Source: Podospora anserina (lineage: Eukaryota). From it: a DNA stretch of 64,000 bases. A model generated the notes under the pieces. It worked only from the letters and a program-made list of their open reading frames with translations, was not told where the DNA came from and made no database searches. The position numbers were made by a program, and so were the translations under genes. The first letter of the stretch is position 1, and each line of letters starts with the position of its first letter. Shown piece by piece: positions 43,717 to 51,200 of this stretch. Location: NCBI GenBank assembly GCA_017654855.1, contig CM030332.1, positions 2,790,001-2,854,000 on the forward strand, given 5' to 3'.

Positions 43717-45143
43717 TCACAGCTCATCCCTCACCAGCTCCACCTGTTGTTGCTTCTCGCCCTCCCCATCAACATCTTCCTCCCACATCCTCTTCATTGG
43801 ATTCTTCTGCTCTCTTTCCTCCTCCTCCTCCACCGCACCCTCTCCCGTCTTATTCCCCTCCTCCCTCTCCCGCTGATCAAGCGTATCCTCCACCATCCTC
43901 CCAACCCTCTCCACATAGCTCTCCACATAACTCTCCTCTCCCCCTTCCACCCTCTGCTTCTCCCCCACCCCCGGCCCAGCAACCTCAATAGTAGGCACAC
44001 TCTCCTCTCCCCCCATCACCACCCTCGTGGTCGTCCCCCCGGGCAACACAACCTCCATCTCCGCCTGCCCTCCCCCACCACCACCACCAGCCAAATTCAC
44101 CACCCCCCTCGTAGTCTTGTAACTGAGCTTCAGCGGCAACCAAACAACCCACCACAACGGTCCATACAACCACCTCCTAAACACCAACCAGCCCAACGTG
44201 ACCAGTAGCAATCTCAGAGAAGTCTGTAAATACCAGGTATCACTCTTTTGCGTGGTCAGCAAGGTGGAAACCAAGTTTTTTGATTTGGAGAGCAGGGAGT
44301 CGATCCCCTCGTAGTTTTTTTGCAGTTCGGCCAGCGCGGCTGAGGACTCGGCTAGGGTTTGGGAGGCAAAAGCTGATTTTTGGACCTCGGCGGCGATGAG
44401 GGCGTGGGTGCGGCGGAGGGAGAGGGTGAGGTCGCTTGAGGCGTTGACTACGGACGAGGATTCGTCGTTGGGGTTGGTGGGTTTTGGCTTGCGGTGGCGG
44501 AGGAGGTCTTTGGGGGTGAAGAGTTGGGTTCGGGGGTCTTTGTTTCCTTCTAAGGAGGAGGAGGACTGTTGTTGCTGGTTGGCTAGGTCGGAAGAGGAGG
44601 AGGAGGAGGAGGTGAGGGAGTGAGTTGAGTTGGCCAACGAAGCCGAAGCAGCATAAGACGCAACAAGGAGCTGGCGCTCGAGTTTTTGGGCGGCGAGGAG
44701 GGAGTGGTGGGCTGAGAGTTGAGCTTTGCGGAAGGTTGTTCGAGCGCTGGTTATTTATCATCACAATGTCAGCCAAGTTGTTTCGTTGTAGATGGGTGTT
44801 GACAGAGAAAAACATACGTCTTGAGTTCATTCTCTAGCCTCTGCGCGCCCTCTTTCAACCTCTGCTTCCTATGCTCGCTCTCGCTCCCCGGCCTCCCACC
44901 TCGAAGGTCAATGATCTCCTCCTGCAACAACTCCAGCTCTTCCTCCTCCTCCCTCAAGATTGAGCTAATCTCTGCGCTCAGCTCCGTCGCTACATTGTCG
45001 CTTTCCTCCTCCCCCTCGGCTGTAAGCGGCACACTCCCCGGCGCAAACTTCAGATTGGCAAGTCTGTGGATCAGCTCCTGGAGCTGGGCGGTCGTTTCCT
45101 GCAGCGCGGACAGCCGCTCGGAGAGGGTGTCGATTGTTGCCAT
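43717..45143 (-). CDS. SEC20: ER SNARE Sec20; intron 44747-44817
   Basis: N-terminal coiled coil, Sec20 domain (ASSDLTLSLRRTHALIAAEVQKS...QTLAESS...SKNLV...KSDTWYL), TM LLLVTLGWLVFRRWLYGP and C-terminal RDEL retrieval signal. Confidence 0.9.
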
Positions 45144-45619: not shown

Positions 45620-45997
45620 ATGATAACCCGCTTCATAACCGAAATCCAAACCGCCTTCAACCCCTTCTCCCCCCGCGCCAAATCCGCCCGCCTCTTCCTC
45701 TCCTTCCTCCCACCAAACGCCCGCTCCTCGGGCATGAACATCACCACCCAGCTCCTCCCCCGGTCCTCCACCGCCCCGAGCAAGCTTTATGTCAAGTTTA
45801 GTATGTTTCCCCTCACCACCACCCAGAAGCCCCTCCATTTCCCTCTACCCAGACAAAGATATTGATTTCGTGATATTCTAGAGGACGGCAAGGAACTCAA
45901 CATCGACGCCGACAACATGGGCATCAAGAGCATAATCGAAGAGGTCGACCGCCACTCCCGTATCCTCCAAAAGGCCGACGATTTGGCTGCTGCTTAA
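45620..45997 (+). CDS. MRPL44: Mitochondrial large-subunit ribosomal protein L44 (mL53), 98 aa; intron 45801-45881
   Basis: MITRFITEIQTAFNPFSPRAKSARLFLSFLPP...LYVKF-KDGKEL...IIEEVDRHSRILQK. Divergent from SEC20 across 476 bp. Confidence 0.9.
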
Positions 45998-46301
45998 AGC
46001 ATTCTACAGTATCAAAAAAACACAAAAACAAAAAACGGGCAGGAAAAGAAGAGGGAATCTGTACAAAAACTGTATCTACCACATATACCATTCTTGTCTT
46101 TACAGCATTGGGAAGGCGTTCAAATATCTTTACAACAAACAAAACACACCACTGCACACTCATCCATCATCATTCAAAAAGACTTGATTCGCTGCTTTGA
46201 TTTTGTTCGACCCGGCTATATCTAGCTTTTAAACCCCTATCTATATACCTTTCTCCAAAAGCCTTGTCAGGGTGTTGTTGTTAAAGCCTCGCCTCAGCAA
46301 T

Positions 46302-47598
46302 TCAAGCAGAAGCACCGCTAATGAAGAACCACTTGTCAATGCTGGCGTCAATGGGAGCAGGGGGGAGCTCCTGGTTCTGGGGCAGGGGGGGGAGCTGGTC
46401 AGGGGAGACGCGGCTCTGGGAGTGGGCAACGGTGAGGTTGGTGGTGGCGATGCCACCGGCGGGGGCCTTGCCGGTGATGAGTTTCTCCCAGGCCTCGTTG
46501 CACTCGTGAACGACGTCCATGGCGTACCTTTGGCCCATTGTTAGCTCTCTACACCACCAGAAACAGCTTGACGGCCTAAATAAAAACCCACTTCTTGTTC
46601 TTGCACTCGCCAGTGAAAGCGAACTGGTTCTCGGGCTTTCCGTCAGGGATCTTGTAGATGCGGAACCACTCGTTAGTGGCCCGCAGAAGACCAGGGAGGT
46701 GGCGCTCGACATCCTCAACGTCGTTGAGCTTGGGAGCCAAGGGGTCGTTGACGTCAATGACAATGACCTTCCAGTCGGTCTCCTCCTCGTCCAAAAGAGC
46801 CATCACGCCGAGGACCTTGACCTGCTTGATCTGGCCGGTGTAGCCAACCAGCTCGCCGATCTCGCAGACGTCCAACGGGTCGTTGTCGCCCTTGGCCTTG
46901 GTCTCGGGGTGGACAACGTTGGGGTCCTCCCAGGTCTGTTATATCACACTTCAGCATGTATATTCTCAGGCAGCCGTTGGGCCACAACAACAACAACCAA
47001 ATCATACCTGAGGGAAGGCACCATAGTTCCAGAGGTACCCCTTGTGGGGGAAGCAGTTGCGAACAAATCTGAGCTTGCCCTTCTTGACGTCCTGCTTGAT
47101 TGGGTTGAGCAGCTCGTCCTTGGAGATCTCCTGCTTGGCGTTGGTCCAGCGGGGGATCTCAACAATCATGTTGAGGATGGTCTTCTCGGCGTTGGCATAG
47201 AGGGGGATGTCGTGGAAGGGGGAGACGGGGACGCCATCCTTCTCGATGTACACGCGGTGCTCGAGGGTGTAGGGGGCGCCGACCTTGCGGATGGAGTAGG
47301 CCATTTTGTCGAACGGTTGACTGCTGGTGGACGTGGAGAGGTGTCGGGCAATCTGGGCTGTCCGCGCAAGAGGTTGTTGCGAGAAGGAGGTCGAGGGATT
47401 TGAAGGAGGGGCTCCTCTCCCAGCGGTGGAGGTGGGGAGACTGTGTGACGACAGCGAGCGGGCCTGTGATTGGCTCGGGCGGGGTTGCAGCTGCTGGTGT
47501 GGCGGCATGTTTGTAAAAGCAGTTTTCGAGGTTGGGAATATTCTCGCTACTCGAGCGGGTGACTGCTGCGTTTGCCGCAGCCTTTGGAGGGCCAACAT
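46302..47598 (-). CDS. IPP1: Family I inorganic pyrophosphatase. Conserved start at 47304 with in-frame upstream ATGs at 47508 and 47598; introns 46936-47007 and 46528-46591
   Basis: [71 protein letters not shown] and IDKWFFI. Confidence 0.95.
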
Positions 47599-48212
47599 GT
47601 GCAGAGGAGAACAGTCTTTGTTATCGTCAATCGTCAATGGGTTTCGATAGCCTTGTTGGCCGAGGTTCGTAGCTCGTTCCCTCGTAGCCCTGTAGCTCGT
47701 CACTCAAAGTGCCTCCCAAGAATTCTTTTGCTTTCCCGCGTCTCAGTGCCTAACCCAGTTCCGATTGACCGACAAGTTGCGCCAACCCGGGAGCGGTATC
47801 GGCTGTGCAGCTCAGCTTCGGTAGCTCTCCCGACCTCTAGACGACTACCGGTGAGCTTAGCTTGACGTTGCTGAGGTGGAGCCAAGCAAAAAGATAACCC
47901 CGCCAGACCCCGTTGGGCTTGGCATGGAAGACCATGGTCACTTCCCCCTATTCAGCCCCTTTTTTTGTCGAAAGTCATCAACAACATGCAAGGAAAATAG
48001 ATATTATTCCAATAACAATTGATATACGCATCCAGGAAGAACAACAGAAACCCCCATCCCGGTTCCGGCTCATCAACCCTCTCATAAACACGCTGCCATT
48101 TCCATTCCTACACCGAATTCCACCAAAAAACAGCCAGAAACACCCCTTGCATTCGAACAATCCCCAAAAGTAAAAGACACCCGTAATTATATCCACCCCA
48201 TTTCTTTCCTCT

Positions 48213-51200
48213 TCATCGCTGCGGCAAATTATTCCTCCCATATAAGGCTCCTCCAAACGCTGGCCCATTATTCCACCCCTGGTGCACGCTCTGCCGCACA
48301 ATATTCGCCGCCTGCTGCCTCGCCGCCATCCGCTCCTTTTGCCTCTGGCGCTCCTTGAGGTAGTTGACCGCCTCGGGCCTCATCCTCAGGATCCTTATGA
48401 TCATATCATCGCTCGGATCCGCCTGCATCTCCTTCCGCTTCTCCTCTTTGGCTTTGCGCATCGTCCCCAGGTTGCGGCTCATCATGATACTCTTGCCGCG
48501 CCTGATCGTGCCCAAACTGCCAAAGCCTGCATTGGCCACACTGAGATGGTTTCCTCCCAGAGACGCCGGGGCCGAAAGACGATTCGGCAGGGCGGGGTGA
48601 GCTTGCTGCGTTTGGAGCTTAGCCCGCTCCATATTAGCCGCCACCATCCGCTCCGAAGTCCTGATCAGATTCTCCGTCGAGTCAAAGTAAAAGAAGTTGA
48701 GCGATGCCAGTTCGTGCCACTTAGGCGACTTGAGGACATCGGCCGGTACTCCCAATACTTCGCCCGTTTCGGGATCCCTGGCGTTGAAGAAGTTGAACAG
48801 GAGTTCGAGCCATCTGTAGACGACGTCCATCTCGGTCTGAGTGAGGGGCTTTTGGTTCGAGGGCTTGTCCGACAGTGGAGGCACCAGCAGGTTCTCAATG
48901 GCAAGCAACACTTCCTTCCACAGTCGTGTCATGACCGCCATCATGGTGGCATCCGTCAGTGTTTGCTTCATGATGGCAAAGTTCTCGTCAAAGTAGGTGA
49001 AGAGCGGCTGGAGAGCATTTTCGATCTCAGCTGCCGTTACTGGTGGCGCGCTAGCCTGCTTCTTCTTCCAAAGACTGGCCATGGAAGCGGCAATTCCCTT
49101 GCTCAAGAGGTTCCGTAACGCTTCATGAGACAGCGAAGCGTTAATATGCATGGTAAGCTAGAGATTGTCAGCATCCTCTTTGATCTTAACCTGCTTCTCT
49201 AGGCTCATCTTACCTTGCTCGTGACCTTCCGCACCATATCTCTCTCCGTCCTCTTCAGATGCCTAAACGCCTTCCCAAAGTGAAACTGGATATCATCACG
49301 CTCACCTTCCATCGTCACCCTAAACAAGATCCTCCCCTGGGTATCAAGATCCAGCCAGAACTCCCTCGGCAAGTAATCACCAAAGTGTACCGGGTCCAGC
49401 TTAAGCGACGTCCGGCCCACAAAGTCGTGCTCGCCAAACATGTCATGGTCCCAAATAGTGGCAATGACGTTCAGCGCCCCTGACACAGTGATGTCAACCG
49501 ACTCGTCCCACCGCGGGTTCAGCGTCCGGGGAATCACCCTCGTCTTCGCCAGACGCTTCTGATACTCATCACAAAGCACCACATACGGATCACTAGTCCC
49601 GTTCGGGTCGCACGCCTTCAGGTCCTCACCCTCGACGATCTTAATCGTAAACACGTAGTGAGCCGGCCGCTTGACCATCTGCTTAGGACCGTCAACCTCA
49701 TCCAGCACCTCCGCGCAGCGATCAACATTCATCAACTTCTCCAGCTTATCGAGCGCCTGCATGGCATACTCGATATTGTTGAACTTGACAAAAGACTGCA
49801 AACCAAAAACATCATTAGCAAACTCCCCCCATCAACAACCTTGATCGCAAAAGAGATAAAAACTGACCTCGGGATAAAACTGAAAAGGCTCAACCCTTTC
49901 CTTCGTATTCCACGCCTCCTTCGCATACTGAAAAAACTTCTCCTGCGCCGTCCTCTCCCTGGCCGCCTCCTGCGCGCTCTGCCTATCCATCTCCCTCGCA
50001 AACTGCAGCTCAACAATCTCACAATACCTCCCAATCCCCGCCGCAAACGCCTTGGCCAAACTCGTCATAAACCTCGCCAAATGCACCTCATCGTTCCACC
50101 CCAGTTGATAAACCTGATCGACCGTCTGGTTAAACAGCGTAAAAGTGTCAATAATCGAATGACTGTGCCTCTCCTCATCAGTCGGGATATCCCCCTCATG
50201 TCTCACCCTAACCTTGAACTGATCTTGCTTGATAGCCGACTCGACAAACTGCGTCATCTTTTCCTCCGCATTCTGAATCCACCTCCACACAAACCCTTCC
50301 AGCAAGCTCTCAATGTGAAACGCAAAAGGCTTGTCAGGCAGCGACTCGAGATGAATCTTTCGGATCTCGACCAGCTCCTTGTACAAGTCAAACCCGTCCT
50401 GCAGGTCAATCTCGACGTTCTGCTGCTTCGCCATGTCCAGCACCCGCTTGATGATCTCGTGCGTGTCCTCCTCGAAGCTGGGGAACGTGGTCTCGACGAG
50501 GACCTTGAACGGGCTGACGCCCATCACTTCCGGGTTCTTGCGGTACCGCTTCTTGATCTTCTCTGCCAGCCCAACCACGGCCTTTCCGAGGTTGACCACG
50601 TTGGCAAAGTCCCACTCTTGCTGATTCCGAGGGATGTGCACATCCAAGAACCCCCTGTACGCATCACCCGCCGCTTCGCGCAGGCCGTTTTCGAGCTGTT
50701 GAGAAAACTCTGCCTCGTCCTCCGGCCGTTGGGAGAAGGCAGGATCGTTGTAGATGTGGTTCATGAGCAAGGCCATTACGACACCGACAGAGGGAGGTTT
50801 GGGGGCGTAGCACTGGCACAAGAGAGTGTAAAGCTCCCGCAGGAGGGCCTCGTGTAGATCTCGCAGTGCCTGTTGGTAGCCCGCAAAATCGACCATCGTC
50901 CACTTGCTGGACTCAATCTCACTGAGGCCCGAGGTAAACAGATAGATAGGAGGCACCTTCTTCGGCTCCGGTTGGGGTTCCTTGACAAAGTCCAGATAAG
51001 TGTACAGCTGCTCCGCAGTGATCTCCGTATCGAGAAACTTGCGAGTCGCAACCTCAATGAGAACAACATGGCGGGTGAATTGTGGAATCCGCCATCGAAC
51101 CGCCAGTTCCACGAGAAGATCGTTGGATTCCTCGTTCAGCGGTGAGGAAGAATCCGCGGCGTGCATCTCATCGTAGGATAAAACATACTGAGTGATGATC

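What the first reader, a model, noticed from the sequence alone, without database searches (positions are those of the whole stretch)
46281..46304. Cryptic peroxisomal targeting signal behind the IPP1 stop codon
Seen: GCT TCT GCT TGA ATT GCT GAG GCG AGG CTT TAA, so reading through the TGA adds X-I-A-E-A-R-L-stop. Established: ARL fits the PTS1 consensus, fungi make peroxisomal isoforms of cytosolic enzymes such as PGK and GAPDH by readthrough or alternative splicing, and peroxisomal acyl-CoA synthetases release PPi. The context here is TGA-ATT, not the efficient TGA-CTA motif, so readthrough would be low-level or use a different signal. A chance PTS1 cannot be excluded.
Basis: partly seen in the sequence, partly recalled or inferred. 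Interest (0 to 1): 0.75.

Follow-up and report, generated by a model that had tools for sequence, protein, structure and literature searches.

The report
Two peroxisome tags on fungal pyrophosphatase
The peroxisome address tag hidden behind this fungal pyrophosphatase gene's stop codon is really in the DNA but was not found in the relatives that could be checked, whereas a second, overlooked peroxisome-like tag near the front of the same gene is kept across filamentous fungi and is the likelier way the enzyme gets in; neither has been tested.

Summary
Observation exact: the spliced IPP1 gene (Podospora anserina complex) ends TGA ATT GCT GAG GCG AGG CTT TAA, so readthrough adds X-IAEARL. Its meaning is doubtful. 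'AT' after the stop is the family default (41 of 101), not a leak signal. Peroxisomal pyrophosphatase by readthrough, splicing or PTS2 is in print for animals and Ustilago (PMC4207609). The stronger signal is upstream: a PTS2-like RTAQIARHL (47364-47338) in the N-terminal extension, matched in 58 of 61 orthologues chosen by their C-terminus (shuffled 3%). In 19 of 37 related loci an AUU/AUC/AUA codon with A at -3 sits 3-5 codons before it, suggesting a non-AUG start. This gene lacks that codon but has three in-frame ATGs. Best reading: mitochondrial, PTS2-peroxisomal and cytosolic isoforms; the ARL tail is chance or a redundant local addition (selected: about one in three). The scan noted non-AUG PTS2 on other enzymes in other genomes; no IPP1 note was found.

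The parts
46281..46304 (-). TGA stop, six sense codons (IAEARL) and TAA: potential readthrough extension
   Evidence: covered by spliced contigs in 4 of 4 runs, no other letters and no joint here
46284..46292 (-). Ala-Arg-Leu codons, PTS1-type tripeptide before the second stop
   Evidence: matches the PTS1 expression of PMC4207609
46302..46527 (-). IPP1 exon 3 with the true stop; missing from the P. anserina database models CAP60487.1 and CDP23132.1
46528..46591 (-). intron 2 (64 nt, GT...AG)
   Evidence: joint in 4 of 4 runs
46592..46935 (-). IPP1 exon 2
46936..47007 (-). intron 1 (72 nt, GT...AG)
   Evidence: joint in 4 of 4 runs
47008..47304 (-). exon 1 from the third ATG (47304, context AAA ATG G): start of the 288-aa catalytic, presumably cytosolic form
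   Evidence: aligns with residue 1 of PDB 1m38
47338..47364 (-). PTS2-like nonapeptide RTAQIARHL in the in-frame N-terminal extension, 20 codons before the third ATG
47506..47508 (-). second in-frame ATG (AAC ATG C), 48 codons before the PTS2-like motif: candidate start of the peroxisomal form
   Evidence: Met kept in all 8 listed Podospora, Triangularia and Cercophora samala records annotated from the first ATG
47509..47598 (-). first in-frame ATG (47598, weak context CAC ATG T) and 30 residues resembling a mitochondrial presequence (5 K/R, no D/E)
   Evidence: targeting inferred from composition, no predictor run

Best explanation
One IPP1 gene serves three compartments through alternative starts, and its conserved peroxisomal signal is the PTS2-like RTAQIARHL, not the tail behind the stop. 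Shown: three ATGs, all in frame (47598 weak, 47508 strong, 47304 optimal); the motif between the second and third; strong conservation of the motif. Inferred: ribosomes starting at the weak first ATG make a presequence-bearing mitochondrial form. Those that leak to the second ATG make a form that lacks most of the presequence and exposes the motif to Pex7/Pex20. The third ATG gives the cytosolic enzyme. In many other filamentous ascomycetes the peroxisomal form probably starts at an AUU/AUC/AUA codon 3-5 codons before the motif. Peroxisomal PPase would remove PPi made by acyl-CoA synthetases (suggested in PMC4207609). The ARL tail is most likely an unselected coincidence. Basal leak through UGA-A could still deliver a trace of enzyme through Pex5, which would be redundant.
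For: The motif R-x6-[HQ]-[LFI] lies within 60 residues before the catalytic domain in 58 of 61 new proteins with such an extension from a search made with the C-terminal exon, against 3.2% in shuffles, and in 84 of 88 from a motif-biased search. It is in 41 of 43 other DNA loci picked on the C-terminal motif alone. Orthologues show textbook forms such as RLSQVSRHL, RISQVARHL and RVQQLAGHF. ATH with A at -3 lies at codons -5..-3 in 19 of 37 loci, against 12 of 452 control windows. The preceding Lys codon is AAA in 13 of 13, against 6 of 69 in the catalytic region and 39 of 88 elsewhere in the extension. U. maydis Ipp1 is reported to carry an N-terminal PTS2 (PMC4207609), and U. maydis Pgd1 uses AGG AUU for a PTS2 form (PMC7214817). 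P. anserina has PEX7 and PEX20 (PMC10782954). Against a selected tail: canonical PTS1 in 1 of 100 other loci (a 36-residue tail behind TAA), and 2 of 100 by the published expression against a null of 0.76%, P=0.18. AT after the stop in 41 of 101 loci, and ATTGC/ATTGG after TAG in 4 loci without a PTS1. TGA ends 77 of 181 called genes here. No unusual RNA fold, z 0.04. None of 206 homologous proteins carries a PTS1 beyond the family's end.
Against: Position 2 of the motif is Thr, which does not fit the consensus (R/K)(L/V/I)x5(H/Q)(L/A) quoted in PMC7214817; only 5 of 39 loci have L/V/I there. That RTx5HL works as a PTS2 in plants is recalled, not checked. Positions 1, 8 and 9 are fixed by my search pattern, so only the match rate counts. 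The motif's end (R-H-L-S-T) also resembles a mitochondrial processing site (recalled). In this gene the motif lies 48 residues from the nearest upstream ATG, far for a PTS2. A broader test (any near-cognate codon with a purine at -3 within 12 codons) was hardly above background: 31 of 38 against 23 of 35 and 22 of 35. Many loci are close relatives, so counts overstate independence. Tail conservation was not testable within Podosporaceae. L036 has TGA CTC plus ...KARI, and this genome's GAPDH has a readthrough ARL, so such tails do evolve.
Confidence: 0.55

Rival explanations
1. The readthrough tail is a selected, lineage-restricted PTS1. A near-cognate tRNA decodes UGA in a small share of ribosomes, X-IAEARL binds Pex5, and the oligomeric enzyme is imported. 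It acts beside the PTS2 route, or replaces it because this lineage lost the AUH start before the PTS2.
For: Short tail ending in canonical ARL; per-gene chance about 0.3%. PPase gained peroxisomal forms repeatedly, also behind non-CT contexts. Patchy distribution is typical of such signals (PMC9549241). L036 shows TGA CTC + LGAKARI on an IPP1. Post hoc, 6 of 7 other TGA-ending tails end in L/I/F against 21 of 93 for TAA/TAG, from about four lineages. The window has no in-frame near-cognate codon in the 29 codons before the PTS2. GAPDH here uses a non-TGA context. My rough odds, from about 1% selected tails among fungal IPP1 against 0.3% chance with penalties for context, run from 0.3 to 0.8 depending on the prior (inference).
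Against: Absent in loci near the sister families; the context is the family default. Glu directly before the tripeptide is unfavourable (recalled). Of the 6 other loci lacking any good near-cognate start, only L073 (SRF) has a PTS1-like tail, and L036 has both signals, so no clear trade-off. The PTS2-like motif is intact in all Podospora and Triangularia proteins seen.
Confidence: 0.33
2. Neither signal is peroxisomal. The N-terminal motif is only the end of a mitochondrial presequence (processing site R-x-L/F-S) and the ARL tail is chance. The gene makes mitochondrial and cytosolic PPase only.
For: Arg at motif position 7 in 25 of 39 loci, 72 of 84 and 51 of 58 proteins; Ser at position 10 in 30 of 39. 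Position 2 is non-consensus. The extension begins like a presequence.
Against: The PTS2-spaced pattern matches about 95% of orthologues while Arg-7 is replaced by G, S, H, N or Q in 14 of 39 loci. An AAA-ATH start 3-5 codons upstream would make a form with almost no presequence. The U. maydis orthologue is reported with a PTS2.
Confidence: 0.09
3. The ARL tail is exposed by A-to-I editing of the stop (UGA to UGG) in sexual tissue, or by alternative splicing, not by ribosomal leak.
For: Sordariomycetes carry out stop-loss editing (PMC13123824). An AG at 46293 directly precedes the ARL codons.
Against: Fungal editing is biased to UAG. No changed letter or joint near the stop in 4 of 4 runs, though contigs drop rare variants and the tissue is unknown. 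All 13 of 688 in-silico splice routes that end in a PTS1 use a GAG acceptor with non-consensus donors, and 12 delete part of the conserved C-terminus while the 13th needs a 21-nt intron.
Confidence: 0.03

Closest known systems
Peroxisomal isoforms of inorganic pyrophosphatase (C. elegans pyp-1 readthrough, mammalian PPA1/PPA2 readthrough, fly Nurf-38 splicing, U. maydis Ipp1 PTS2; PMC4207609)
   Same: Same enzyme and same predicted destination; both the readthrough PTS1 and the N-terminal PTS2 route are named there.
   Different: No filamentous ascomycete PPase appears in the text parts read or in Table S2 (Fig. 6B not visible). Here both signals occur in one gene.
Readthrough PTS1 of fungal PGK, TPI, GAPDH, Rpe1, Art1 at UGA CU(A) (PMC4207609; Freitag 2012, not read, known through PMC4207609 and PMC4973966)
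   Same: Short in-frame extension ending in a PTS1 behind the stop of a cytosolic enzyme.
   Different: Context is TGA ATT, the IPP1 family default, and conservation was not found.
U. maydis Pgd1: cryptic PTS2 made by non-AUG (AGG AUU) initiation (PMC7214817)
   Same: PTS2-like motif 15-35 codons before the cytosolic ATG; an AUH codon in good context just upstream in 19 of 37 related IPP1 loci.
   Different: The IPP1 extension continues upstream to AUG starts with a presequence-like head. The window's gene lacks the AUH codon. Motif position 2 is mostly T/A/S.
Leaky-scanning dual AUG genes of Cryptococcus and Neurospora (PMC7049704)
   Same: Weak upstream AUG plus strong downstream in-frame AUG separated by a mitochondrial targeting sequence.
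   Different: Three starts and a peroxisomal signal here; the word peroxisome does not occur in that paper's main text.

Membership tests
Family I soluble pyrophosphatase (IPP1) | PF00719 domain; full-length likeness to solved yeast-type PPase | tested here: met
   PF00719 E 4e-49; PDB 1m38 E 1e-138
Readthrough-derived PTS1 isoform | In-frame PTS1 tripeptide directly before the next stop | tested here: met
   ARL-TAA after six codons
Readthrough-derived PTS1 isoform | Leaky context UGA CU(A) or a stimulatory 3' structure | tested here: not met
   TGA ATT; AT is the family default, 41 of 101; fold z 0.04. Published predicted PPase cases also lack CT, so this does not exclude it.
Readthrough-derived PTS1 isoform | Stop context and PTS1 conserved in relatives | tested here: inconclusive
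   Not conserved in 100 other fungal loci including sister families; no Podosporaceae DNA obtained
Readthrough-derived PTS1 isoform | Extended protein detected; Pex5-dependent peroxisomal location | not testable with these tools
   needs ribosome profiling, mass spectrometry or reporters
PTS2-bearing isoform | R-x6-(H/Q)-(L/A/F) core with hydrophobic position 5 | tested here: met
   RTAQIARHL, 47364-47338; position 5 is I/L/V in 39 of 39 loci
PTS2-bearing isoform | L/V/I at position 2 (consensus quoted in PMC7214817) | tested here: not met
   Thr here; L/V/I in 5 of 39 loci. So it is called PTS2-like, not PTS2.
PTS2-bearing isoform | Conserved within an otherwise variable N-terminal extension | tested here: met
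   58 of 61 proteins vs 3.2% shuffled; 41 of 43 other loci
PTS2-bearing isoform | Pex7-dependent import | not testable with these tools
   no complex prediction run; needs GFP fusion in wild type and pex7 deletion
Non-AUG-initiated PTS2 isoform (Pgd1 type) | Near-cognate codon in good context just before the PTS2 | tested here: not met
   Absent in the window (nearest is CTG 30 codons upstream, T at -3); present in 19 of 37 related loci
Stop-loss A-to-I editing target | UAG stop with A-to-G change in sexual-stage RNA | tested here: not met
   Stop is TGA; no changed letter in 4 of 4 contig sets of unknown tissue

The most novel reading that the evidence does not exclude
A targeting swap caught in progress. 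Filamentous ascomycetes ancestrally make peroxisomal PPase from a non-AUG (AAA-AUH) start just before a PTS2. The Podospora lineage lost that start and gained a readthrough PTS1, so one gene now yields mitochondrial, cytosolic and two peroxisomal isoforms and can use both Pex7/Pex20 and Pex5. The non-AUG PTS2 part alone, in relatives, is more likely (about 0.7).
Probability: 0.15. Interest if true: 0.65.

Novelty: new member of a known kind. Interest (0 to 1): 0.4.

Why it matters
PPi removal makes fatty-acid activation irreversible, so how PPase reaches fungal peroxisomes matters for beta-oxidation. If the PTS2-like motif works, it gives filamentous ascomycetes a conserved Pex7 cargo, and in many species a second enzyme with a non-AUG-started peroxisomal form. 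In Podospora, where PEX5, PEX7 and PEX20 deletions exist and act differently in development (PMC10782954), both routes can be tested in one gene. The readthrough tail itself would only add one patchy example to a published list.

Tried and rejected
(1) No DNA of close relatives was obtained. The C-terminal motif scan of prokaryote genomes gave 3 chance hits. The viral scan gave 9 loci that I did not examine. The genome search holds no relatives. (2) A protein search with the stop read as Trp found no orthologue aligned over the tail; best coverage was 91% of 81 residues among 120 listed. (3) No RNA holder was on record. The four runs laid are contigs guessed as RNA; they skip both introns. One run's deepest contig ends at 47379, 15 nt above the PTS2-like motif, while three reach 47713-47842. 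One study only, so no inference on the transcription start. (4) RNA structure near the stop: none above shuffles. (5) Splice routes to ARL rejected; the same test was out of frame and is void. (6) A general near-cognate enrichment before the motif was hardly above background. (7) A trade-off between loss of the AUH start and gain of a tail was not supported (1 of 6 other loci). (8) Gene ends are heuristic (long frames with a codon score over 664 kb); some are exon ends. (9) The second PPase gene (L002) has no PTS1 at its end and no PTS2-like motif upstream. (10) Literature searches for an ascomycete IPP1 PTS1/PTS2 found none beyond PMC4207609; most subscription papers are not in that library. 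Supplementary lists of PMC7049704 (N. crassa dual-start genes) were not opened and may list IPP1. (11) Look-ups of earlier findings for IPP1 gave nothing (none with both words). No structure or complex prediction was run.

Full report
The observation. The minus strand at 46304-46281 reads TGA ATT GCT GAG GCG AGG CTT TAA. The last exon translates ...[18 protein letters not shown]. The gene has two introns, both skipped in contigs of 4 of 4 laid runs. The spliced frame from ATG 47304 gives 288 residues identical to P0216, a PF00719 pyrophosphatase. The nearest named homologues are from the Podospora anserina complex.

Is the tail more than chance? A canonical PTS1 before a stop occurs in 5 of 1569 control segments from fungal 3' flanks (0.32%) and in 0.26% of 200,000 shuffles of this gene's own 3' UTR. 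It occurs behind 0 of 172 heuristically called gene ends in 664 kb of this genome. That is rare for one gene, about 6% for a window of about 19 genes, and about 30 genes per genome (inference). The prior is raised because PPase is known to gain peroxisomal forms. PMC4207609 reports a TGA-CT readthrough PTS1 in C. elegans pyp-1, putative readthrough PTS1 in mammalian PPA1/PPA2, a spliced PTS1 in fly Nurf-38 and an N-terminal PTS2 in U. maydis Ipp1. Its Table S2 lists PPase cases behind TGA AGA, TGA TTG and TGA GGG.

Of these, 113 match PPase proteins, 101 are distinct over 24 nt from the stop, and 100 could be read to a second stop. One has a canonical tripeptide (L109, CKM after 36 residues behind TAA). 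By the published expression two match (L036, TGA CTC LGAKARI; L073, TAA ATT ILDTSRF) against a null of 0.76%, P=0.18. Loci grouping with or most similar to Chaetomiaceae (L040, L069, L086, L091) and Schizotheciaceae (L041, L042) end in TAG or TAA with no PTS1. No locus fell in Podosporaceae, so conservation at the depth that matters most is untested. None of 206 homologous proteins runs past the family's end into a PTS1; the one ending in AKL is a fragment that lacks the C-terminal motif.

The context. AT follows the stop in 41 of 101 IPP1 loci, and ATTGC or ATTGG follows TAG in four loci with no PTS1. TGA ends 77 of 181 called genes of this genome. The region folds no better than shuffles. 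No plausible splice route reaches ARL, and fungal stop-loss editing is biased to UAG. So only basal leak is left; PMC4973966 speaks of UGA rates below 0.1% without CUA.

Results that favour the tail. This genome's GAPDH ends TAA CTC ... LGCVPARL, so cryptic PTS1 tails behind non-TGA contexts exist here. L036 looks like a real readthrough PTS1 on an IPP1. Post hoc, 6 of 7 other TGA-ending tails end in L, I or F against 21 of 93 for TAA/TAG, but they come from about four lineages. A review calls the distribution of such signals patchy. I put a selected tail at about one in three.

The frame is open for 133 codons above the third ATG and holds RTAQIARHL at 47364-47338. The pattern R-x6-[HQ]-[LFI] lies within 60 residues before the catalytic domain in 58 of 61 proteins with such an extension among the 86 new hits of a search made with the C-terminal exon; shuffles give 3.2%. 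It is in 84 of 88 from the first search, whose query included the motif. Among DNA loci picked only on the C-terminal motif, the start of the catalytic domain was found in 43 besides the window's own; 41 have the pattern (38 after removing 3 duplicates), and one of the two misses holds only 22 upstream codons. The named carriers span Sordariomycetes, Eurotiomycetes, Leotiomycetes, Dothideomycetes, Orbiliomycetes and Pezizomycetes (class names from my knowledge of the genera). Positions 1, 8 and 9 are fixed by the pattern. Of the free positions, 5 is I/L/V in 39 of 39 and 7 is Arg in only 25 of 39, which fits a PTS2 better than a mitochondrial processing site. Position 2 is mostly T/A/S and fails the strict consensus, so I call it PTS2-like.

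How the motif is translated. In 19 of 37 related loci an ATT/ATC/ATA with A at -3 lies 3-5 codons before the Arg, against 12 of 452 control windows. Where Lys precedes that Ile its codon is AAA in 13 of 13, against 6 of 69 in the catalytic region and 39 of 88 elsewhere in the extension. Ile stands at -5..-3 in 42 of 58 and 19 of 84 proteins. This is the footprint of a start-codon context and parallels the AGG AUU start of peroxisomal Pgd1 (PMC7214817). Related loci are not independent, and a looser test was hardly above background. The window's gene lacks such a codon. Its 5' region (47900-47290) holds three ATGs, all in frame: 47598 (CAC ATG T), followed by 30 residues with 5 K/R and no D/E; 47508 (AAC ATG C); and 47304 (AAA ATG G). 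Spliced contigs reach above the first ATG in 3 of 4 runs. Leaky scanning of weak AUGs for mitochondrial and cytosolic forms is described for Neurospora.

Mechanism and verdict. Most likely the first ATG gives a mitochondrial form, the second a form imported by Pex7/Pex20, and the third the cytosolic enzyme. The sequence anatomy and conservation are shown; isoform use and import are inferred. The ARL tail is chance or a redundant local addition. Both routes are known kinds, and peroxisomal PPase is in print. I found no paper naming either signal for ascomycete IPP1. Novelty: new member of a known kind; interest 0.4.

Papers seen. PMC4207609: parts 1-3 of 5 of the text, a search of its 7 supplements, Table S2; figures not visible. 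PMC7214817: parts 1-2 of 5. PMC9549241, PMC7049704, PMC13123824, PMC10782954, PMC4973966, PMC11842775: passages only. Others: search listings only. Freitag 2012: not read. Recalled without a call: RTx5HL as a plant PTS2 variant, mitochondrial R-2/R-3 processing motifs, the preference for basic residues before a PTS1, and PPase oligomer state.

Noticed in passing
window 46302-46591, minus: The P. anserina database proteins CAP60487.1 and CDP23132.1 (316 aa) end ...CKNKKWVFI by reading into intron 2 and miss exon 3; contigs of 4 of 4 runs splice that intron. The gene model is truncated.
   Followed up: yes
L127, G000:C4 stop at 1812260, minus: GAPDH ends TAA CTC ... and readthrough would add X-LGCVPARL, a PTS1 behind a TAA-CT context.
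   Followed up: partly
L125, G000:C8 about 2186224-2186390, minus: TPI: the frame that continues through the last intron stays open and ends KKELARI, a possible intron-retention or alternative-splice PTS1 form; the spliced form's TGA tail has no PTS1.
   Followed up: no
L120 (G000:C7 stop at 4147700) and L122 (G000:C1 about 6867350): PGK ends TAG ATC with a 14-residue tail ending CSL, not a clear PTS1; ribulose-phosphate epimerase ends in GKL in its own frame.
   Followed up: no
L036 and L014, just after the IPP1 stop: Two related Sordariomycete IPP1 loci end TGA CTC LGAKARI and TGA CCA PGGKARIF, differing by one codon: a likely readthrough PTS1 and its broken or unfinished sister.
   Followed up: partly
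L007, L096, L032, just after the IPP1 stop: IPP1 loci nearest to Cercospora and Fulvia proteins keep TGA ATC and an 8-residue tail (ISKPSSLL, ISKPSAVL); not a recognised PTS1.
   Followed up: no
L002, G000:C4:3941458-3944793: A second PPase gene (63% identical over exon 2) with no N-terminal extension, no PTS2-like motif and no PTS1.
   Followed up: yes
window 43717-45142 (minus), 45620-45997 (plus), 48213-49157 (minus): Neighbours: Sec20 (PF03908), mitochondrial ribosomal MRP_L53 (PF10780) converging on the IPP1 3' end, and a gene with a weak MUN-domain match. Fused database models with C2/MUN domains (P0145, P0194) or Sec20 (P0180) suggest conserved gene order.
   Followed up: partly
window 47785 and 47839: A-to-G differences (plus strand) upstream of IPP1, at 47785 in contigs of three runs and at 47839 in two; probably strain differences, no matched DNA run laid.
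   Followed up: no
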